From an uncultured Thiothrix sp. (GTDB taxonomy: Bacteria > Pseudomonadota > Gammaproteobacteria > Poriferisulfidales > GCA-002705445): a stretch of DNA of 64,000 bases. Position numbers and translations under genes: made by a program. The stretch lies in assembly GCA_902624655.1 (NCBI GenBank), contig CACNYJ010000002.1, positions 69,771-133,770 of the forward strand, read 5' to 3'. This document shows positions 3,356 to 61,800 of this stretch, piece after piece (positions within the stretch are counted from its first letter, which is position 1; every line of letters begins with the position of its first letter). The notes beneath the pieces are model-generated. The model saw nothing but the letters and a program-made list of their open reading frames with translations. It was not told the origin of the DNA and did not search any database.

Positions 3356-4906
3356 TTGTCCATAGGTTTAATTTCCAAAACACAGCTACATGAAGGAAGC
3401 ACATATTATGCACAAGGCGGTATATCTGCAGTGCTCAGTAAGATTGATTCAATTGATCAGCATGTTGAAGATACAATGGAGGCAGGTGCGGGTCTTTGTA
3501 AAGAAGATATTGTCCAAGCAGTTGCGGAAGATTCAAAAGAGATAATACAGTGGCTTCTTGACCAAGGTGTTGAATTCACCAAAAATGATAAAAGTCCTGA
3601 GGGAAAACTTCATTTAACAAAAGAAGGCGGTCACACGCATCCAAGAATTGTTCATGCGGCAGATAAGACTGGGGAAGCAATTCAAGATAGTTTAATTGAC
3701 AAACTCAAAAAAAGAAAAAATATTGAAATTTTTACTCATCACGTGGCAGTTGACTTGATAACACATTCTCAAGAAAAATCATCAGTTAAAAAATGTATTG
3801 GAGCATTTATTTTAAATACAAAAAATAATATAGTGGATACATTTCGAGCTAAATATGTAGTTATTGCAACTGGCGGAGCTAATAAAGTTTATTTATACAC
3901 CAGTAATCCAGATACCTCATCTGGAGACGGAATTGCAATGGCATTCAGAGCTGGTTGTGATATCGCAAATATGGAATTTATGCAGTTTCATCCAACCTGC
4001 CTATATCATAGAGATGCAAAATCTTTTTTGATTAGTGAATCATTAAGAGGAGAAGGTGGTAAATTAGTATTACCAAATGGTAAAGAATTTATGCATAAGT
4101 ATGATTCTCGAGGGGTTCTTGCTCCTAGAGATATTGTTGCTAGGGCAATAGACAGTGAGATGAAAATTCAAGGACTCGATTTTGTGATGCTTGATATTTC
4201 CCATAAAAAACCATCTTTTGTCAAAAAAAGATTTCCAAATATTTATAAAAAATGTCTAGAGTTTAATATTGATATAACAAAAGAGGGTATTCCTGTTGTT
4301 CCTGCTACGCATTATACTTGTGGAGGTATAAATATAGATATAAATGCAAGAACAAATATAAAAAATCTCTATGCAATCGGAGAAGTCGCTCATTCTGGAC
4401 TTCATGGAGCAAATAGAATGGCAAGTAATTCACTTCTAGAATGCATATTTTTTTCCAAAAAAGTACAGGAGGACATTGTCAGACAAGAAAAATTTAATTC
4501 TTCTAACAACCTTATAAATTATAATTTTAATTTTGCCAGGACTATTAGCAGGGATTCATCTGAAACAATATTAATAAAAAACTTATGGAAAGAGATTAGA
4601 ACTCTCATGTGGGATTATGTTGGAATTGTAAGAACAAATGAGAGATTGCTTAAAGCAAAAATTAGAACTTCGATTTACAAGAAAGAAATAGAAGATTTAT
4701 TTAAAAAATATATTATCTCTAGTGACTTAATCGAGTTAAGAAATCTCATATATATTGCAGAAATTATTATTACATCGGCCTTAATAAGAAAAGAAAGCAG
4801 AGGGCTACATTATAATCTTGATTATCCTAAAACGAAGAACGAGCCAGAAGATACTGTAATAAATAAGAATAAAAAAAGTAAAATTAAATTATATCAAGAA
4901 AAATAG
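3356..4906 (+). CDS. nadB: L-aspartate oxidase (NadB); the true start is upstream of the listed TTG (see findings)
   Basis: 516 aa ORF with YAQGGISAV and the fumarate-reductase/succinate-dehydrogenase flavoprotein fold. The FAD-binding motif DVLIIGSGAAG is encoded in frame at 3293..3328, upstream of the first ATG/GTG/TTG. Confidence 0.85.
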   Translation: MSIGLISKTQLHEGSTYYAQGGISAVLSKIDSIDQHVEDTMEAGAGLCKEDIVQAVAEDSKEIIQWLLDQGVEFTKNDKSPEGKLHLTKEGGHTHPRIVHAADKTGEAIQDSLIDKLKKRKNIEIFTHHVAVDLITHSQEKSSVKKCIGAFILNTKNNIVDTFRAKYVVIATGGANKVYLYTSNPDTSSGDGIAMAFRAGCDIANMEFMQFHPTCLYHRDAKSFLISESLRGEGGKLVLPNGKEFMHKYDSRGVLAPRDIVARAIDSEMKIQGLDFVMLDISHKKPSFVKKRFPNIYKKCLEFNIDITKEGIPVVPATHYTCGGINIDINARTNIKNLYAIGEVAHSGLHGANRMASNSLLECIFFSKKVQEDIVRQEKFNSSNNLINYNFNFARTISRDSSETILIKNLWKEIRTLMWDYVGIVRTNERLLKAKIRTSIYKKEIEDLFKKYIISSDLIELRNLIYIAEIIITSALIRKESRGLHYNLDYPKTKNEPEDTVINKNKKSKIKLYQEK

Positions 4907-5429
4907 ATTTTCTGTAATACTTTAGTTCTTCAATAGAATCCTTTATATCTTCGATAGCTATATGCTGAGGATCTTTCTTGAACTTTTTATCTGGGTACCA
5001 TCTGTTTACTAATTCTTTGATAGTACTGACATCAAGATTTCTGTAATGAAAGTAGTCCTCTAGTTCCGGCATACATCTTGCCAAAAAACGCCTATCTTGG
5101 CATATTCCGCTTCCGCACATAGGCGATTTTTTTTTATCAATATATTTTGATAGAAATTCAATAGTCATCTCTTGAGCATCATGGTAATTGTAAGTACTTT
5201 GTTTAATCCTTTCTACCAGACCAGACTTATTGTGTTGATTTGTATTCCACTCGTCCATCGCTTCAATATCTTCAAGAGGAGTATTTATTGCTATCACAGG
5301 GCCTTCCTCTAGAATATTGAGATCCTTATCAGTAGCAATAGTTGCAATCTCTATTATTCTATCTTTGAATGTGTCAAGGCCAGTCATCTCAAGGTCTATC
5401 CATATCAAGTTTTGTGCATTTTTACTCAT
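4884..5429 (-). CDS. orn: Oligoribonuclease
   Basis: 181 aa beginning MSKNAQNLIWIDLEMTGLD, the DEDDh exonuclease motif of Orn. Its 3' end overlaps the nadB 3' end convergently by 23 nt. Confidence 0.9.
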   Translation of the reverse strand: MSKNAQNLIWIDLEMTGLDTFKDRIIEIATIATDKDLNILEEGPVIAINTPLEDIEAMDEWNTNQHNKSGLVERIKQSTYNYHDAQEMTIEFLSKYIDKKKSPMCGSGICQDRRFLARCMPELEDYFHYRNLDVSTIKELVNRWYPDKKFKKDPQHIAIEDIKDSIEELKYYRKSIFLDII

Positions 5430-5470: not shown

Positions 5471-6070
5471 TTAATAAAGGGTTCTCTTTTCAAAAGCTTT
5501 TGATAGTGTACGTTGATCAAGATATTCCAATTCTCCTCCCATCGGCACTCCTTGTGCTAGTCGAGTTACCTTAACTGAATTCTTTATAGCTATATCACTA
5601 ATAACGTGTGCAGTAACGTCACTTTCTACTGTATTATTAACAGCAAGTATTAATTCTTTAACAGCCCCTGAAGAAATTTTATCTTTCAATAAATCAATGC
5701 CAATTTCGTTTGGCCCTATCCCGTCAAGCGGCGACAATCGACCTAGAAGGACAAAGTACTTTCCATTGTAGCTTGTACTATTTTCAATATTCATGACGTC
5801 TGCCGGACTTTCAACAACGCAAAGTAAAGCTTCACTTCTTGAGAGATCTGAGCATAGTTCACAAATCTCATCTTGAGATAAATTTCTACAAGATTTACAG
5901 TTAAGTGTTTTGTTTACAGCTTCTCTTAAAACTTCTGACAAATTAAGCGCTTCATCTTTTGCTCTTTGAAGTAAAAAATAAGTCATTCTTTGTGCAGTTT
6001 TCTTGCCTACGCCTGGCAGACAAGTTAAAGCATTTATTAAATCTTCAATAAGAGTTTTATTTTTAGACAT
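5471..6070 (-). CDS. recR: Recombination protein RecR (start placed at the internal MSKNK; the ORF track extends to 6145)
   Basis: CLPGVGKKTAQRM helix-hairpin-helix, a C4 zinc finger (CKSCRNLSQDEICELC) and a Toprim region. It sits in the conserved dnaX-ybaB-recR order. Confidence 0.9.
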   Translation of the reverse strand: MSKNKTLIEDLINALTCLPGVGKKTAQRMTYFLLQRAKDEALNLSEVLREAVNKTLNCKSCRNLSQDEICELCSDLSRSEALLCVVESPADVMNIENSTSYNGKYFVLLGRLSPLDGIGPNEIGIDLLKDKISSGAVKELILAVNNTVESDVTAHVISDIAIKNSVKVTRLAQGVPMGGELEYLDQRTLSKAFEKRTLY

Positions 6071-6074
6071 AAAT

Positions 6075-6407
6075 TTAAAAAGGGAGATCTGTTGGTATAC
6101 CCTGTTTTGATAAAGTTGATAATTTATCTGATGACATCTTGTCAACTTCTTTTACTCCTTTATTCAAAATTTCTTTTAACATAATTTCTAGCTTTTCTTT
6201 ATTATCAATATCTATGTTGTTGGAAAAATTTATTTTCTGAATAAAGTGATCTCCGTTAAAAACTACAGTAATACTTTTGTCATCGTTTGTAACAGTAATA
6301 TTTGTTTTTGAGATCTCTTTTTTAAGCTTTTTCATATCTTTTTTCATTTTTTGGGCTTGTTTCATTAAACCCATCATATCACCCATACCTCCAGGACCTT
6401 TAAACAT
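6075..6407 (-). CDS. ybaB: Nucleoid-associated protein YbaB/EbfC
   Basis: 110 aa, MFKGPGGMGDMMGLMKQAQKMKKDM, characteristic of YbaB. It lies between dnaX and recR. Confidence 0.9.
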   Translation of the reverse strand: MFKGPGGMGDMMGLMKQAQKMKKDMKKLKKEISKTNITVTNDDKSITVVFNGDHFIQKINFSNNIDIDNKEKLEIMLKEILNKGVKEVDKMSSDKLSTLSKQGIPTDLPF

Positions 6408-6409
6408 AA

Positions 6410-8017
6410 TTAATCTCCTTTTGATTTTTCATTTATTTTTATTGAGTTATCAATAATTTTTGCTTCAAATTTATCTTTGATTGTCTTAACAAAGACATCA
6501 TTATCAATTTCTTTTTCAGCTAATTTGATCCTATCATTATAGTTTGATTCTTGTGTTTTATGAATAGTATTTAAATTGTTATCAGAAATATTAAGTTTTA
6601 CAAAAATCTCTTGGCCAAAGAAGTTCGATAAGGCCTCTTGTAGCTTTGTTATTGATTTTTCTGTAGCAACATTTTTTAAATTCTCATTAATTAAAAAATT
6701 GTAATTATTATCTTTACAATTGTCGAAAATAATATTTCTAGCTAGATTCCTTGTTATGGAATCTATTTCAAGCCTAGAAACAATTGTGTCCCATTTTGAT
6801 TTTATATCAACTTGTTTTTGAATTTCTGAATGTGTTTCTTTTACCGGTTCAATTTTTTTTTTTGACTCTGAATTATTTTTCATCTCTGGTAATTCTGATT
6901 TTGTATGATTGTCTTGTATTTCTCTAGAGTTAAATTGGAAAGGAGTAAATAACATCATTCTAATTATGGTCATTTCAAATCCACTTTTATAATCAGGAGC
7001 ATAATCTAAATCCTTCAAGTTTGATGTACAAATTTGATAAAGTGTTTGTATATTCTCCTCGTTAAATTTGTTAGAAAAAGCTAATATGCTCTTTTCATAA
7101 GTACAATCTTTTATTATATTTGTGACTTTATAGATCGCGGTCTGGTGTAAAATTGAGATAATCTCTTCTAGTAAGTGTTTAAAGTCAGTAGATTCATAAT
7201 AAATTTTATCGATAAAAATCATCAAAGATTTAATATTATCTTTTACAATCATTTCACATATATTATTAATATTATCGGCTGGTGTGAGGCATAATATTTT
7301 ACATACATTGTCATAGGTAATCTTATTATCACCATGAGAAATACTTTGCTCTGTTAAACTTAAAGCATCTCTCATGCTGCCGTCAGCAAGTCTTGAAATA
7401 TTCTCTATGGCTTTTTTTTCAAATATGACATTTTCATCTAATAATATTTTAGTAAGTTGCTCGCCTATTATATTTGCAGTAATTCTGTTAAGTCCAAAAT
7501 GTAAGCACCTTGAAAGAATAGTGGTCGGAATTTTTTGATAATCAGTAGTCGCAAGAATAAATTTTACATGACTAGGAGGTTCTTCGAGAGTTTTTAATAG
7601 CGCATTAAAGCTATGTGTAGATAGCATATGAACTTCGTCAATTAGGTATATCTTAAACCTTCCTTGAGTTGGCATATATTGAACGTTTTCTAAAAGCTCT
7701 CTAGTGTCTTCGACTTTTGTTCTTGAAGCCGCATCAATTTCATATAAATCGACAAATTGTCCAAGATCAATTGATTCACAGCTAATACAGTCACCACAAG
7801 GAGCTGAGCTAACTCCATTTGTTTCACAATTAAAACATTTGGCAAGTATTCTTGCTAAAGTTGTCTTGCCAACGCCCCTTGTTCCTGTTAGTAAATATGA
7901 ATGGTGAATTCTATTGTTGTCTAAGCTATTGGCTAAAGCCTTTACGATTGGCTCTTGGCCTACTAAGTCAGAAAAGGACTTTGGTCTCCATTTTGTAGCT
8001 AAAACGGTGTCTTTCAT
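6410..8017 (-). CDS. dnaX: DNA polymerase III subunit tau/gamma
   Basis: 535 aa with an AAA+ clamp-loader N-terminus (LLTGTRGVGKTTLARILAK) and a Cys4 zinc module. It contains an internal A11 run (see findings). Confidence 0.9.
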   Translation of the reverse strand: MKDTVLATKWRPKSFSDLVGQEPIVKALANSLDNNRIHHSYLLTGTRGVGKTTLARILAKCFNCETNGVSSAPCGDCISCESIDLGQFVDLYEIDAASRTKVEDTRELLENVQYMPTQGRFKIYLIDEVHMLSTHSFNALLKTLEEPPSHVKFILATTDYQKIPTTILSRCLHFGLNRITANIIGEQLTKILLDENVIFEKKAIENISRLADGSMRDALSLTEQSISHGDNKITYDNVCKILCLTPADNINNICEMIVKDNIKSLMIFIDKIYYESTDFKHLLEEIISILHQTAIYKVTNIIKDCTYEKSILAFSNKFNEENIQTLYQICTSNLKDLDYAPDYKSGFEMTIIRMMLFTPFQFNSREIQDNHTKSELPEMKNNSESKKKIEPVKETHSEIQKQVDIKSKWDTIVSRLEIDSITRNLARNIIFDNCKDNNYNFLINENLKNVATEKSITKLQEALSNFFGQEIFVKLNISDNNLNTIHKTQESNYNDRIKLAEKEIDNDVFVKTIKDKFEAKIIDNSIKINEKSKGD

Positions 8018-8059
8018 AATTAAATTTATGCTATCACAAATATGATACTAATCATTCTC

Positions 8060-8980
8060 TTATTTAAACATAAAAACAATTATCACAGGAACATATATTA
8101 AGCCAAATATAGTTGAGAAAAGAACCGCTGAGGATACTTTTTCTGGATGAACATCAAGTGCTGTTGCAAAAATAACGGTATTAGCTGCGATTGGAACAAT
8201 AGATAAAAGCATAAAAGCTCTATATACCTCTATGGTATATATATGGAAAATATAGAAATCTAAGAGGACTAAAATTAACATAACAATAGGCCATATAATG
8301 AATTTCCCTAAAAAAGATAAAAAAATAAAATTATAGTCAAATGAAAAGTTTTTAATTTTCGAAATACCAAATCCTATTAACATCATTCCTAAAACTACGT
8401 ACGCGCCTTGCATACTTACTACAAAGTTATCCATAATATTTGGTAGCTTTATATCATAATTTAGAAAGACCACTGCAAAAAGAAAAGCATATAATGCTGG
8501 AAGTTTTTTTAACCTATTTAAAGAGTCTTTTACGCTATATCTTCCCCTAGCTGTTAAATAGTAAACAACTGTATTTTCAAATAATGTTACACCAACAGTA
8601 CCAAGAATATAAACTCCAAAAATTTTCTGATCAAATAGAAGCAATGCTATAGGTATTCCAAAATATCCGGTGTTACCCTCTGCCGACACTATAGAAAGCA
8701 TATTTGCTCTTGCATCTCCATACTTATACATTCCGTAGGTATAAAATAAAAAAGCAACAAAAGAACAAATTAGGAAAGCGATAATAGGTAAAATAAACGT
8801 ACTTAGTGATAAACTTGAATGTGTTATGGCTTCAAAAATGACAAATGGAGCAATTATAAAAATTATCAATTTGCCAATACCTTTTGCGTCAATTTCTAAG
8901 TATTTGCCTGAGATAAATCCTATTAAAACAAAAATGTACAATGGCAAAATTTTATAAAGTATTGAAAAAAATATATCCAT
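8060..8980 (-). CDS. Membrane transport protein of the AEC (auxin efflux carrier / Mem_trans) family
   Basis: 306 aa and polytopic. The N-terminus MDIFFSILYKILPLYIFVLIGFISGKYL is typical of the AEC family. Confidence 0.5.
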   Translation of the reverse strand: MDIFFSILYKILPLYIFVLIGFISGKYLEIDAKGIGKLIIFIIAPFVIFEAITHSSLSLSTFILPIIAFLICSFVAFLFYTYGMYKYGDARANMLSIVSAEGNTGYFGIPIALLLFDQKIFGVYILGTVGVTLFENTVVYYLTARGRYSVKDSLNRLKKLPALYAFLFAVVFLNYDIKLPNIMDNFVVSMQGAYVVLGMMLIGFGISKIKNFSFDYNFIFLSFLGKFIIWPIVMLILVLLDFYIFHIYTIEVYRAFMLLSIVPIAANTVIFATALDVHPEKVSSAVLFSTIFGLIYVPVIIVFMFK

Positions 8981-28931: not shown

Positions 28932-29615
28932 TTAGCTTTCTAAAACATTGATTGCTACGTTTCTTAATGTTCCTGAATCTACGTCTTCTTTTGTTGGCAA
29001 ACATGTAAATGGAATAATATCTTCTTTACTAGTTGCTGGATGAGCTTTCACTGCTGTACACCATTCACTTACTTTTGCTCTCGAAGAGACAACATCACTA
29101 TTACCTGAAATTTCTAAAGCATTTACACACGCCATCCAATGAATGTCGGCTAGAGAAAATTCCCCGCATATGTAAACGTCTCTTTTTAGTTTTGGGTCTG
29201 TTGGATTAGTTAAAATTTTTTCAAGGACATCGAAAGCTTTGTTAACAGTATCCATGTTACCGCCTGAACCAGTTAACATACCGTAAGCTTCCATTTGAAC
29301 ATAATCGGATGCAATATGAGCATATTGATACATAATAGCTCTGATGACTCCGTTCCTTGGAATTAAGGACGGTCCAAAGCCTTTATCATCTAAGTAAGAA
29401 ATTATTGCATTTGGGCCATAGACAATATTATCTAAATCTTTCAATACTGGAGCACTATGCAAAGGAGACATTTCTGCAGCTTCTTCTCCACTATTAATTT
29501 TATGTACTTCAACATCTACTCCTTTTTCTCCAGCTGTTTGCAATATTTTAGCTGTATTAATACAACTTGGATTGCCAAATAATTGCATAGCCGATGCTAA
29601 TTTATCACCGATCAT
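28932..29615 (-). CDS. Glutathione S-transferase-like protein
   Basis: 227 aa with an N-terminal thioredoxin-fold GST pattern (LFGNPSCINTAKIL...SPLHSAPVL...GPNAIISYL) and a helical C-terminal domain. Confidence 0.6.
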   Translation of the reverse strand: MIGDKLASAMQLFGNPSCINTAKILQTAGEKGVDVEVHKINSGEEAAEMSPLHSAPVLKDLDNIVYGPNAIISYLDDKGFGPSLIPRNGVIRAIMYQYAHIASDYVQMEAYGMLTGSGGNMDTVNKAFDVLEKILTNPTDPKLKRDVYICGEFSLADIHWMACVNALEISGNSDVVSSRAKVSEWCTAVKAHPATSKEDIIPFTCLPTKEDVDSGTLRNVAINVLES

Positions 29616-29647
29616 ATCTTCCCTCCTAAGAGAATATTATTTTTTTT

Positions 29648-29842
29648 TTAACTTTCTATTCTTAAAGCGCCAGAAGGACATTCTGAAACAACATCAGCAA
29701 TTTTCTCCTCCGAACTTGCTTCTGTGTCAATTATAAACTTTCCATCTTCCACTTTAAATACTTCTGGTGCTCCTTGTACACACTTACCTGCATGAATACA
29801 AACACTTTCGTCCCATGATACTTTCATATCAATTCTCCTCAT
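29648..29842 (-). CDS. Small mono-cluster ferredoxin (3Fe-4S / P450-associated type); likely start at the internal MKVS (29827)
   Basis: CIHAGKC...APEVF...CPSGAL, a three-Cys pattern typical of small [3Fe-4S] ferredoxins. Confidence 0.55.
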   Translation of the reverse strand: MRRIDMKVSWDESVCIHAGKCVQGAPEVFKVEDGKFIIDTEASSEEKIADVVSECPSGALRIES

Positions 29843-58831: not shown

Positions 58832-61800
58832 TTATGCAAGTTTAAAAATATTTTGAAGTTTATAAACTTTTAGATTATTTGAGTGAGATATTGCTCCAAC
58901 TAGTGCATTTGCTCCTGCAATTGTAGTTGTATAATATACTTTTTGTTGTAATGCTTCTCTCCTGATTAAATATGAATCTTTTATAGCTTGTTTGTTCTGA
59001 GTTGTATTTATAATTAAGTCAATTTCCTTATTTTTGATCATATCAACGATATGAGTTCTTCCTTCTCTTACTTTGTTCACTCTTAAACATTTAATATTAT
59101 TTTTATTTAAGTAAGATTGTGTTCCGCCCGTAGCAAATAAATTAAAACCTAATTGAATTAATTTTTTTGCAATAGTATTTATGTTTTTCTTGTCTTCGTC
59201 TTTAACACTTATGAAAGCATTGCCCCCAGATGGAATTTCGATATTTGTTGATATCTGAGATTTTGCAAAAGCTTCTTCGAAAGTTTTTCCTGTTCCCATT
59301 ACCTCTCCTGTGGATTTCATTTCTGGACTTAGAATTGGATCTGCACCTGGAAACTTTAAAAAAGGGAAAACAACTTCTTTCACATTAAAATATTTACTTT
59401 TTGTTTCTTTAGGAGGATTTATCTCTTTTAAGGTTTCGCCGAGCATACATTTTGCGGCAATTTTTGCTACTGAGACACCAATCGATTTTGAAACAAAGGG
59501 TATGGTTCGAGATGCTCTTGGATTAACTTCTATAACATATAATTTTTTATCTTTGATTGCGAATTGTACATTCATTAAACCTAAAACATTTAATTTATTT
59601 GCCATTTTAACCGTATTTTTCTTAATAAAATCAAGTTGTATTTTGCTTATTGAGTAAGTTGGGATAGAGCATGCAGAATCACCAGAATGAACGCCTGCTT
59701 CCTCTATGTGTTGCATTATCCCAGCGATATACACCTCACCTTCTTTATCCCTTATTGCATCAACATCAATTTCAATTGCTTCATTTAAAAATTTATCAAT
59801 TAGAACGGGTGCATCATTTGATACTTTCACAGCCTCGTTTATATATTTCTTTAATTCGCTTGAATCATAAATCACTTCCATTGCTCTACCACCAAGAACG
59901 TAAGATGGTCTTACAATTATTGGATAACCAATATCATCAGCTTTTTTTAATGCCTGATTCTTATTCCTTGCAGTACCATTTGCAGGCTGAAGTACATCAA
60001 TATCTTTTAAAATCTTTTGAAACTTCTCTCTATCCTCTGCCGCATCAATCGACGCTGGGGATGTTCCAATAATAGGAACTTTAAACTTAGCAAGATCATT
60101 GACTAATTTTAAGGGTGTTTGACCACCATATTGAACAATAACTCCATCAGGTTTTTCAATATCTACAATATTAAGAACACTTTCGAGTGTAATAGGTTCA
60201 AAATATAATCGATCAGAAGTATCATAGTCTGTAGAAACGGTTTCCGGATTACAATTTATCATAATAGTTTCATATCCGAGTTCTTGTGCAGCCTTTGATG
60301 CATGAACACAGCAATAGTCAAACTCGATACCTTGTCCAATTCTATTTGGGCCGCTGCCAATAACAATAATTTTTTTATTTTTTGTTGGCAATGATTCGCA
60401 GAAATCTTCATACGTTGAGTAAAAATATGAAGTAGATGTAGGGAATTCAGCAGCACATGTGTCTACCCTCTTATAAACTGGTTTAATTTTTAAATTTATT
60501 CTCTTACTTCTAACTCTTGCTTCAGTTGTTTTCATTAATTTTGCAATTTTTACATCTGTAAATCCTTTTTTCTTAAACGAAAGCATATCCTTTTTTGATA
60601 TATCATTAATTTTATTTTTTGAAATACTTTTTTCTAAATTTACAATTTCGAAAATATTTTCTAAAAACCAATTATCTATTTTGGATATATTATGTACCTC
60701 TAGTATAGAATAATTTCTCCTAAATGCTTCAGCAACATAAAGTATTCTGTTAGGTCCAGGCTCTCTTAATTCGTATTCAAATTTAAATTTATCCATATCT
60801 TTAAAATCATCAATTTGATCGAGGCCGTAAAGGTCTAACTCAAGACTTGATAAAGCCTTCTGAAGTGATTCTTGAAAATTTCTACCCATTGACATTACTT
60901 CGCCGACTGATTTCATTTGAGTTGTAAGTCTATTATTCGATTTTGGGAATTTCTCAAAAGCGAATCTCGGAATTTTTGTCACAACGTAATCAATAGTAGG
61001 TTCAAAAGAAGCTGGAGTAGCGCCTCCAGTAATTTCGTTTTGCAGCTCATCTAAAGAAAATCCGACAGCAAGTTTTGCTGCTACTTTTGCTATTGGAAAG
61101 CCTGTTGCCTTAGATGCAAGAGCCGACGAACGGGATACCCTTGGATTCATTTCAATTACCACAAGTTTTCCATTCTTAGGATTTACAGCAAATTGGACAT
61201 TTGAACCACCAGTATCAACGCCTATTTTACGTAAGATTGCAATTGAAGCGTTTCTCATAATTTGATACTCCTTGTCAGTTAAAGTCTGAGCAGGAGCAAC
61301 TGTTATTGAGTCGCCAGTATGGACGCCCATAGGATCAAAATTTTCTATGGAGCAAATTATTATACAATTATCTTTTGAGTCTCTTACAACCTCCATTTCG
61401 TACTCCTTCCAGCCTAAAAGTGATTCCTCTAGGAGTATTTCAGTTGTTGGTGATATATCTAATCCTCTTTTTGATATTTCAATAAATTCCTCGATATTGT
61501 AAGCAATTCCACCGCCACTGCCTCCTAGGGTAAAAGAAGGTCTAATAATGATCGGAAATCCTATTTTTTTTTGCTTGTTAAGAGCATCTTCAAAATTTTT
61601 TACAATATATGATTTAGCTGAATCTAAGTTTATTTCTTGCATGGCTTTTTTAAATAAAAATCGATCCTCAGCTAGGTCTATGGCATTTTTGGATGCTCCA
61701 ATCATTTCCACTTTATGTTTTTTTAATACTCCTAATCTATCTAAATCCAGCGCACAATTTAGGGCGGTTTGTCCACCCATAGTTGGTAAAATCGCATCTG

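What the first reader, a model, noticed from the sequence alone, without database searches (positions are those of the whole stretch)
6853..6863. An 11-nt homopolymeric A-run inside dnaX at the tau/gamma boundary, with immediate stops in both slipped frames
Within dnaX (minus strand) the codons TCA AAA AAA AAA ATT (S385 KKK I389) contain an uninterrupted A11 run (T11 on the given strand, 6853..6863). One extra A, or a -1 ribosomal slip, reads ...KKKN then TGA, giving a ~389-aa product. Loss of one A reads ...KKKLNR then TAA, also terminating within 3 codons. This resembles the programmed -1 frameshift in E. coli dnaX (A AAA AAG followed by a stop after one codon) and the transcriptional slippage on an A-run in Thermus dnaX, both of which produce the shorter gamma subunit. 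The run lies about 72% along the ORF, matching the domain III/IV boundary where gamma ends in other bacteria. Caveat: this genome is AT-rich and carries other long A-runs in coding sequence (for example A10 in carB near 61565..61574), and alternative-frame stops are frequent, so the signal is suggestive rather than proof.
Basis: partly seen in the sequence, partly recalled or inferred. Interest (0 to 1): 0.5.

Follow-up and report, generated by a model that had tools for sequence, protein, structure and literature searches.

The report
Slippery A11 run splitting dnaX products
An uninterrupted run of eleven A's sits in the DNA-replication gene dnaX exactly where other bacteria make a short and a long protein from one gene, and comparison with relatives suggests it is a kept slippage signal of an already known (Thermus-like) kind, not a chance product of an AT-rich genome.

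Summary
Window 6853..6863 is T11 on the + strand, which is A11 in dnaX (6410..8017, minus strand, codons S385-KKK-I389). It is the longest homopolymer in the 64 kb. It lies 25 residues after the clamp-loader core (domains I-III) and before tau domain V. mRNAs with one A more or fewer would give ~44 kDa gamma-like proteins ending at TGA or TAA.

No E. coli-type frameshift cassette is present: no AAG, no Shine-Dalgarno-like box, no hairpin and no Rfam RF00382 hit, although the positive control hit.

Comparative evidence favours a maintained Thermus-type slippage site:
- A11 is at the same position in three lineages down to 84% identity.
- At 80% and 69% identity an A10 lies 22 nt upstream instead.
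- 29 of 36 distinct linkers in the clade carry A>=9, none has a longest run of exactly 8, and codon phase varies.
- Elsewhere in the window 11 of 13 KKK motifs are broken by AAG.
- In 80 other proteobacterial dnaX loci, 14 of 15 A/T>=9 runs fall in this same zone.

The nearby off-frame stops are weak evidence. Nothing on expression could be tested. Verdict: a new member of a known kind, of moderate interest.

The parts
6410..8017 (-). dnaX ORF. It is a single open frame of 535 aa (61.3 kDa) and encodes the tau form.
   Evidence: ORF list. Pfam matches: DNA_pol3_delta2, DNAX_ATPase_lid, DNA_pol3_gamma3 and DNA_pol3_tau_5. Matches E. coli DnaX at E = 3.7e-112.
6938..8017 (-). Codons 1-360: clamp-loader core, domains I-III. 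This part is shared by the predicted tau and gamma-like products.
   Evidence: Residues 4-359 align to E. coli DnaX 4-361, the part present in the crystallised gamma 1-373 chains such as 1jr3_A. Pfam domain III ends at aa 356.
6794..6937 (-). Codons 361-408: hypervariable linker rich in Lys, Asn and Glu, between domain III and domain V. This is the zone where relatives carry their A runs.
   Evidence: Protein alignment A1 shows no conservation in this stretch. Linker boundaries were taken from the motifs ...FTPF and W..[IV]..L.[IV]D.
6853..6863 (-). A11 homopolymer (T11 on the + strand), codons tcA AAA AAA AAA Att. This is the proposed slippage site.
   Evidence: Identical in L081, L082, L128, L129 and L130.
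6849..6851 (-). TGA stop in the -1 frame. It is read from mRNAs with A12 or A9, or after a -1 ribosomal shift. Products are 389 or 388 aa.
   Evidence: The ATT GAA that creates AAT TGA is conserved in the three A11 lineages.
6841..6843 (-). TAA stop in the +1 frame. It is read from mRNAs with A10 or A13. Products are 391 or 392 aa.
   Evidence: In L082 the equivalent stop is TAG at the same place.
6413..6793 (-). Codons 409-535: tau-specific domain V, the part that binds the polymerase alpha subunit. It would be missing from every slipped product.
   Evidence: Pfam PF12170 DNA_pol3_tau_5 at aa 401-526.

Best explanation
The A11 tract is a Thermus-type slippage site that lets one dnaX gene give two proteins.

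Proposed mechanism:
- While RNA polymerase transcribes the T11 template, the RNA:DNA hybrid can realign without mismatch. This yields a mixed mRNA population: A10, A11, A12, A13 and so on.
- mRNAs with A11 or A14 encode full-length tau (535-536 aa, 61 kDa).
- All other lengths run into TGA (6849..6851) or TAA (6841..6843) within 1-3 codons. They give 388-392 aa proteins of about 44 kDa.
- These short proteins keep the complete clamp-loader core (domains I-III) and lack the domain that binds the polymerase. They are gamma-like.
- Ribosomal -1 slipping or sliding on A_AAA_AAA may add to the same products.

Shown here: the run and its position, the predicted products, the absence of E. coli-type stimulators, and the comparative signature of maintenance.

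Inferred, not shown: that slippage happens in this organism, in what proportion, and that the short product is used.
For: Position and products:
- The run lies 25 residues after the end of the E. coli-alignable gamma core and 12 residues before the Pfam domain V match.
- All non-triplet changes in run length give ~44 kDa products.

Conservation and turnover:
- A11 is at the identical nucleotide in 6 sequences from 3 lineages, despite 14% and 27% synonymous divergence and a change of flanking codons (TCA to CTA; CCG GTA to CCC ATA).
- Lineages at 80% and 69% identity lack A11 but carry A10 22 nt upstream. In that sub-group, L088 lost the A10 and keeps an A9 that L089 and L092 lack.

Clade-wide enrichment:
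- 29 of 36 distinct linkers have a longest A run of >=9. Expected numbers are 14.8, 20.0 and 11.9 under three nulls (all P<0.0005).
- No linker has a longest run of exactly 8, against ~6-7 expected (P = 0.001).
- With one representative per 80%-identity cluster, 17.6 of 20 have A>=9, against 12.8 expected (P = 0.002).
- The density of A>=9 runs is 51-fold higher in the linker than elsewhere in the same loci.
- The ratio of runs >=9 to runs of 8 is 5.5 in the linker and 0.25 elsewhere.

The genome otherwise avoids such runs:
- A>=9 runs in coding sequence: 6 observed against 10.3 expected. A>=10: 1 observed against 3.9 expected.
- 11 of 13 KKK motifs in window genes are interrupted by AAG. Only dnaX and orn are all-AAA.
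- Lys is encoded by AAA in 92% of linker codons against 81% elsewhere in dnaX.

Mechanism:
- Runs occur in all three codon phases with a threshold at 9. That fits realignment of the hybrid in RNA polymerase, not a phase-dependent X_XXY_YYZ ribosomal shift.
- There is no 3' hairpin (-3.5 kcal/mol, z = +1.3) and no RF00382 hit.

Same design elsewhere:
- In 539 kb from 80 other proteobacterial dnaX loci, 14 of 15 A/T>=9 runs lie in the zone after domain III, which is 5% of the sequence. This includes genes of 52-66% GC.

Precedent from the literature:
- Thermus dnaX has an A9 run, stops in both non-zero frames and about 50% slippage (Larsen 2000, as described in PMC1088944 and PMC5009743).
- Selection against slippery runs typically becomes evident at 9 nt (PMC1088944).
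Against: - No transcript or protein data were available. Slippage efficiency in this organism is unknown, and Baranov et al. (PMC1088944) note that some AT-rich bacteria may have evolved to suppress slippage.
- Given the peptide SKKKI, an A>=9 run is expected 78% of the time, so this single sequence is not significant on its own.
- The linker is low-complexity and Lys-rich, and such regions gain homopolymers by replication slippage.
- Seven of 36 linkers (4 of 20 clusters wholly or partly) have no run longer than 7, so the feature is dispensable in some lineages.
- Conservation of A11 across only three lineages is weak statistically. The fraction of conserved Lys codons that are AAA in both sequences is 68-77%.
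- Off-frame stops this close are common in this composition.
- The sequences in the clade tests are related. The cluster-level correction is only approximate.
Confidence: 0.6

Rival explanations
1. Neutral by-product. The A run is simply what a fast-evolving, Lys-rich, low-complexity linker looks like in a 32% GC genome. Any slipped products are harmless because they resemble gamma, so the run is tolerated, not selected.
For: - The linker is hypervariable and rich in K, N and E.
- Given SKKKI, A>=9 is expected 78% of the time.
- Conservation across the three A11 lineages is not significant alone.
- 7 of 36 linkers lack a run of >=8.
- The higher AAA usage in the linker (92% against 81%) could reflect relaxed codon selection.
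- Near off-frame stops are expected by composition.
Against: - The excess of A>=9 survives a null that uses the linker's own codon usage (29 against 20.0, P<0.0005) and a per-cluster correction (P = 0.002).
- The length distribution is inverted and has a gap: a longest run of 8 is never seen, while 9 and 10 are the most common.
- The run is replaced, not merely lost, between sub-lineages.
- The same feature occurs in GC-rich dnaX genes, where mutational bias cannot produce it.
- Mere tolerance predicts numbers equal to the null, not above it.
Confidence: 0.25
2. E. coli-type programmed -1 ribosomal frameshifting is the main route. Ribosomes slip on the in-phase heptamer A_AAA_AAA (tcA AAA AAA) and terminate at TGA one codon later.
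For: - The run contains two in-phase A_AAA_AAA heptamers and a -1 stop after one codon.
- Any A>=9 run contains an in-phase heptamer whatever its phase.
- Ribosomes are reported to slide on iterated AAA codons (PMC4363877).
- Many other Proteobacteria in the survey use in-phase A_AAA_AAG with a -1 stop within 2-3 codons.
Against: - There is no AAG. The review PMC5009743 states that A_AAA_AAA is much less shift-prone than A_AAA_AAG in E. coli.
- There is no SD-like AGGGAG upstream; only GAG is present.
- There is no downstream hairpin.
- There is no RF00382 hit at E<=10, while the model finds Brenneria dnaX.
- Ribosomal frameshifting would accept A7 or A8 in the right phase. Yet longest runs of 8 are absent in the clade and all three phases are used.
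Confidence: 0.1
3. A DNA-level phenomenon or an artefact. The tract is a hypermutable or phase-variable site, or a homopolymer sequencing or assembly error, and the in-frame A11 has no significance.
For: - Homopolymers are hotspots for replication slippage.
- Long-read assemblies of the P0004 lineage show dnaX broken at the linker A runs: P0140 and P0141 (384 aa), and P0138, P0146, P0148 and P0149.
Against: - Six independent assemblies from three lineages all have exactly A11 in frame.
- All 36 distinct linkers recovered from metagenome contigs are in frame.
- The broken genes come from assemblies whose dnaX is also truncated at other sites (the proteins start at M215). That is typical of homopolymer miscalls.
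Confidence: 0.03

Closest known systems
Thermus thermophilus dnaX programmed transcriptional slippage (Larsen et al. 2000, as described in PMC1088944 and PMC5009743)
   Same: Tau is encoded by a single ORF. A homopolymeric A run of >=9 lies in the sense strand after the clamp-loader core. Stop codons are close by in both non-zero frames. No ribosomal stimulators are needed. The short products lack the tau-specific C-terminus.
   Different: The run is A11, not A9. The host is an uncultured, 32% GC marine gammaproteobacterial lineage, where A runs are far likelier by chance than in Thermus. The position of the run moves within the linker between sub-lineages. No experimental evidence exists here.
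E. coli / enterobacterial dnaX -1 programmed ribosomal frameshift cassette (Rfam RF00382)
   Same: The gene, the location just downstream of domain III and the outcome are the same: a gamma that ends one codon after the shift in the -1 frame. The shift site is Lys-codon based.
   Different: There is no A_AAA_AAG, no upstream Shine-Dalgarno-like element, no downstream stem-loop and no covariance-model match. The control locus L042 matches at 45.3 bits.
Two-ORF dnaX genes with A10 and similar runs (Antonov et al. 2013, PMC3711429)
   Same: A poly-A tract sits at the gamma/tau junction of dnaX, and programmed transcriptional realignment is inferred from sequence alone.
   Different: In those genes the zero frame stops after the run, so tau needs recoding. 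Here the zero frame is open and the short form needs the slip.
Poly-A tracts in endosymbiont genes (Buchnera, Blochmannia; PMC3017870, cited in PMC5009743)
   Same: The genome is AT-rich and reduced, and long A runs in coding sequence make transcriptional slippage expected.
   Different: In those cases slippage rescues frameshifted genes and is viewed as error correction during genome decay. Here the gene is intact, and the rest of the genome avoids such runs.

Membership tests
DnaX (DNA polymerase III tau/gamma) | AAA+ clamp-loader domains I-III plus tau domain V | tested here: met
   Pfam PF13177, PF22608, PF12169 and PF12170, all above their cut-offs. Residues 4-359 match E. coli DnaX 4-361 at E = 3.7e-112. 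Gene order dnaX-ybaB-recR.
Thermus-type dnaX transcriptional slippage site | Uninterrupted sense-strand A run of at least 9 within a single tau ORF | tested here: met
   A11 at 6853..6863. The zero frame is open over all 535 codons.
Thermus-type dnaX transcriptional slippage site | The run lies after the clamp-loader core and before the tau-specific functional domain | tested here: met
   The run is at codons 385-389. The core ends at about aa 360, and domain V is matched from aa 401.
Thermus-type dnaX transcriptional slippage site | Stop codons close by in both non-zero frames | tested here: met
   TGA after 1 codon in the -1 frame and TAA after 3 codons in the +1 frame. The feature is weakly discriminating here: the joint chance is about 0.09.
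Thermus-type dnaX transcriptional slippage site | The slippery run is maintained in relatives beyond what composition predicts | tested here: met
   A11 is identical in 3 lineages. 29 of 36 linkers have A>=9 against 12-20 expected. Per-cluster P = 0.002. The run is lost in some lineages. Phylogenetic correction is only approximate.
Thermus-type dnaX transcriptional slippage site | Heterogeneous A-run length in mRNA and a gamma-size protein in cells | not testable with these tools
   No transcriptome or proteome data are accessible. See the next steps.
E. coli-type dnaX -1 PRF cassette (RF00382) | In-phase A_AAA_AAG heptamer | tested here: not met
   The codons are tcA AAA AAA AAA ATT, with no AAG. 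Control loci such as L042, L048 and L065 have an in-phase AAAAAAG.
E. coli-type dnaX -1 PRF cassette (RF00382) | Upstream Shine-Dalgarno-like stimulator and downstream stem-loop | tested here: not met
   The upstream sequence is AAUAAUUCAGAGUC, which has no AGGGAG or GGAGG. The downstream 74 nt fold at -3.5 kcal/mol, weaker than shuffles (z = +1.33). The upstream 77 nt fold at -2.5 kcal/mol.
E. coli-type dnaX -1 PRF cassette (RF00382) | Match to the Rfam covariance model | tested here: not met
   No RF00382 hit at E<=10 in window 6300..8100. The positive control L042 scores 45.3 bits against a gathering score of 35.
Two-ORF dnaX (tau requires recoding; Antonov 2013) | A zero-frame stop directly after the poly-A run, with the tau C-terminus in another frame | tested here: not met
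   The zero frame continues to codon 535 and includes domain V.

The most novel reading that the evidence does not exclude
Poly-A slippage at the gamma/tau junction is not a Thermus curiosity. It may be a widespread, repeatedly re-invented and positionally mobile recoding signal in Proteobacteria. In this sample it appears in about 16% of 80 diverse dnaX loci and about 80% of this marine clade. It shows a sharp functional threshold at nine A's. Run lengths of 9 to 13 could set the gamma:tau ratio. In streamlined AT-rich marine bacteria, which otherwise purge such runs, it would be the only route to gamma.
Probability: 0.4. Interest if true: 0.5.

Novelty: new member of a known kind. Interest (0 to 1): 0.4.

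Why it matters
[quoted passage not shown] Each independent mechanism that produces gamma is taken as evidence that the short form matters.

A maintained slippage tract in a tiny, streamlined marine genome that otherwise breaks up poly-A runs would add an independent lineage to that argument. It would show that the Thermus-type solution is also used in Gammaproteobacteria, alongside the E. coli-type heptamer.

There is also a practical point. Such tracts cause dnaX to be split or mis-annotated in long-read assemblies.

Tried and rejected
- The genome-contig scan with the full-length alignment returned only distant relatives (<=53% identity). The loci were reused as a broad survey. Close relatives came instead from exact-protein look-ups and from a metagenome scan with a clade-specific C-terminal alignment.
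- Off-frame stop proximity was tested as evidence. It is largely explained by AT-rich composition and was not relied on.
- Truncated DnaX proteins of 384, 155-170 aa in the P0004 cluster were considered as natural frameshifted alleles. They were rejected as probable homopolymer errors of long-read assemblies, because the same genes are also broken elsewhere.
- The search for E. coli-type stimulators by RNA folding and Rfam was negative.
- Conservation of A11 among the three closest lineages was quantified and found not significant on its own.
- The tRNA scan of the window found no tRNA-Lys gene, so the tRNA-Lys repertoire relevant to ribosomal frameshifting could not be assessed.
- The organism could not be named. 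The database hits carry no taxonomy beyond 'Gammaproteobacteria bacterium'.
Full report
**Observation**

The minus strand of window 6300..8200 reads ...AAT AAT TCA GAG TCA AAA AAA AAA ATT GAA CCG GTA AAA GAA.... The eleven A's occupy 6863..6853, which is T11 on the + strand.

The enclosing ORF is 6410..8017 on the minus strand, 535 aa. It is dnaX by every test:
- Pfam finds DNA_pol3_delta2, the DnaX ATPase lid, domain III (aa 234-356) and tau domain V (aa 401-526).
- Residues 4-359 align to E. coli DnaX 4-361 at E = 3.7e-112. That is the portion present in the crystallised gamma 1-373 chains.
- ybaB and recR follow it, as in many bacteria.

The run begins at the third base of codon 385. Simulated run lengths give these products:

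| mRNA run length | Product | C-terminus |
|---|---|---|
| A11 | 535 aa, 61.3 kDa | full length |
| A14 | 536 aa | full length, one extra Lys |
| A12 | 389 aa | ...SKKKN |
| A9 | 388 aa | ...SKKN |
| A10 | 391 aa | ...SKKKLNR |
| A13 | 392 aa | ...SKKKKLNR |

All the short products are about 44 kDa. The carB comparison is slightly wrong: that run is A9 at 61564..61572.

**Chance within the window**

- The window is 32% GC, and A11 is its longest homopolymer. The next longest is an intergenic T10 at 29640..29649, followed by five runs of 9.
- I resampled synonymous codons in 58 window genes, using their own codon usage. This predicts 10.3 runs of A>=9 and 3.9 runs of A>=10. The observed numbers are 6 (P = 0.03) and 1 (P = 0.05), and the single A>=10 run is in dnaX.
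- The avoidance is visible directly. Of 13 KKK or KKKK motifs in these genes, 11 are interrupted by AAG, typically as AAA AAG AAA. Lys is AAA in 80.5% of codons, so about half should be all-AAA. Only dnaX and orn codon 99 are uninterrupted.
- This genome therefore breaks up poly-A tracts, and dnaX is an exception.
- Conversely, given the peptide SKKKI, an A>=9 run is expected 78% of the time. The window sequence alone proves little.
- Off-frame stops are also uninformative. In these genes the median distance to a stop is 4 codons in the -1 frame and 6 in the +1 frame.

**Close relatives**

A protein search found a graded series of marine relatives at 94, 84, 80, 69 and 59-68% identity. Their DNA came from exact-protein look-ups.

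- A11 sits at gene nt 1155 in the window, in four assemblies of the 94% lineage (L081, L128, L129, L130) and in the 84% lineage (L082).
- The flanking codons differ (TCA to CTA; CCG GTA to CCC ATA or CCC GTA). Synonymous differences affect 14% and 27% of conserved codons.
- The 80% lineage (L083, L086, L087) has only A8 at that site, but carries A10 22 nt upstream (GAA AAA AAA AAT AAA). There one extra A gives TAA at once.
- The 69% lineage (L084, L089, L092) has the same A10. Its relative L088 has lost that A10 and keeps an A9 sixteen nt further upstream, which L089 and L092 lack.
- The run is thus replaced, not simply lost. However, three-lineage conservation of A11 is not significant by itself, because 68-77% of conserved Lys codons are AAA in both sequences.

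**The wider clade**

A metagenome scan with a clade-specific C-terminal alignment raised the sample to 36 distinct linker sequences. The linker is the stretch between ...FTPF and the W..[IV]..L.[IV]D motif. It is 43-66 residues long and hypervariable.

Longest A run per linker:

| Longest run | 6 | 7 | 8 | 9 | 10 | 11 | 13 |
|---|---|---|---|---|---|---|---|
| Number of linkers | 1 | 6 | 0 | 12 | 13 | 3 | 1 |

- 29 of 36 linkers reach 9 or more. Expected numbers are 14.8 (synonymous resampling with non-linker codon usage), 20.0 (the linker's own codon usage) and 11.9 (shuffling codon order). All three give P<0.0005.
- A longest run of exactly 8 is expected 6-7 times and never seen (P = 0.001).
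- With one representative from each of 20 clusters (80% identity in domain V), 17.6 have A>=9, against 12.8 expected (P = 0.002) or 6.7 expected (P<5e-5).
- In the same 35 loci, A>=9 runs are 51 times denser in the linker than elsewhere.
- The ratio of runs >=9 to runs of 8 is 5.5 in the linker and 0.25 elsewhere.
- Runs start in all three codon phases and at many positions.
- Seven linkers have nothing longer than A7, so the feature is not universal.

**Other Proteobacteria**

The 80 distant dnaX loci served as a survey.
- About 17 carry an in-phase A_AAA_AAG with a -1 stop, usually within 2-3 codons. These include Brenneria, Xenorhabdus, Vibrio, Shewanella, Colwellia, Alcanivorax, Oceanimonas and Cellvibrionales.
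- Thirteen others carry A9-A10 just after domain III. Several have 52-66% GC, for example L036 (GGG CAA AAA AAA AAG CCT CTG ACT GAG) and L040, along with Pasteurella oralis, Aggregatibacter segnis, Marinomonas, Oceanospirillum and Pseudohongiella.
- Across all 539 kb of these loci there are 15 A/T runs of >=9. Fourteen lie in that zone of dnaX, which is 5% of the sequence.

A long A run at this point of dnaX is therefore a recurrent design, not an accident of AT richness.

**Mechanism**

The E. coli cassette is absent:
- There is no AAG and no Shine-Dalgarno-like box; the upstream sequence is AAUAAUUCAGAGUC.
- There is no downstream hairpin: -3.5 kcal/mol, weaker than shuffled sequence.
- There is no upstream structure.
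- There is no RF00382 match at E<=10, whereas the model finds the Brenneria dnaX control at 45.3 bits.

The literature read here gives this background:
- In Thermus, an A9 run in a single tau ORF with stops in both other frames gives about 50% gamma by RNA polymerase slippage (PMC1088944, PMC5009743).
- Selection against slippery runs typically becomes evident at 9 nt (PMC1088944).
- A_AAA_AAA is much less shift-prone for ribosomes than A_AAA_AAG (PMC5009743).

The independence from codon phase and the step between 8 and 9 in this clade fit the polymerase mechanism. The link to the length of the RNA:DNA hybrid is my inference. Ribosomal slipping or sliding on iterated AAA codons (PMC4363877) could contribute to the same products.

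**Verdict**

The tract is best read as a Thermus-type dnaX slippage site that yields a ~44 kDa gamma-like protein beside the 61 kDa tau (confidence about 0.6).
- The main rival is that it is a tolerated by-product of a Lys-rich linker (about 0.25).
- E. coli-type frameshifting as the main route is less likely (about 0.1).
- An artefact or a DNA-level variable site is unlikely (about 0.03).

It is a new member of a known kind. Poly-A recoding of dnaX has been inferred from sequence before (PMC3711429, for two-ORF genes). What is added here is the single-ORF form in an uncultured AT-rich marine gammaproteobacterial clade, and the comparative signature that supports it. Expression was not and could not be tested.

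Noticed in passing
window 5127..5135 (orn, 4884..5429 minus strand, codon 99): This is the only other all-AAA KKK motif in the window (GAT AAA AAA AAA TCG, A9), in the middle of the oligoribonuclease gene. An A9 also occurs at the corresponding place in the 94% relative (L081, nt 3905, inside its RNase_T gene). Slippage here would truncate Orn. It is not known why this run escapes the general AAG interruption.
   Followed up: partly
window 29640..29649: The second-longest homopolymer in the window (T10 on the + strand, A10 on the minus strand). It starts inside the TAA stop codon of a small minus-strand ORF (ATG at about 29826) and fills the spacer before the AGGAGG ribosome-binding site of the next gene (28932..29615). 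So it is intergenic, not coding.
   Followed up: no
window-wide coding sequence (58 ORFs): Long A runs are depleted in coding sequence relative to synonymous resampling: A>=9 is 6 observed against 10.3 expected, and A>=10 is 1 against 3.9. Eleven of 13 KKK motifs are interrupted by AAG. This suggests that the genome is under selection against slippery tracts, despite 32% GC.
   Followed up: yes
L008, L011, L019, L022, L030, L033, L036, L040, L056, L066, L069, L078, L080 (dnaX codons ~367-462): Thirteen of 80 diverse proteobacterial dnaX genes carry A9-A10 just after domain III. They include genes of 52-66% GC and named species (Pasteurella oralis, Aggregatibacter segnis, Marinomonas colpomeniae, Oceanospirillum sanctuarii). 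Fourteen of the 15 A/T>=9 runs in 539 kb of these loci lie in this zone.
   Followed up: partly
proteins P0138, P0140, P0141, P0146, P0148, P0149 (cluster of P0004; contigs 0.3-1.15 Mb): In several long-read assemblies of the 69% lineage, dnaX is called as fragments that end or shift at the linker A9/A10 runs (for example ...DKKNQLKKKIIQI). These are probably homopolymer miscalls. They show that such tracts cause annotation breaks.
   Followed up: partly
proteins P0122 and P0123 (a Tara contig of the 94% lineage): dnaX is split into 124 aa and 405 aa pieces near codon 124 (...GRFRYI* instead of ...GRFKIYLIDEVHM). This frameshift is away from any long homopolymer and is unexplained.
   Followed up: no
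window 5471..6145 (recR): The mechanically listed recR ORF (224 aa, TTG start) overlaps ybaB by 71 nt. Relatives' recR genes are called at 198-199 aa, so the true start is probably the internal ATG (MSKNKTL...).
   Followed up: no
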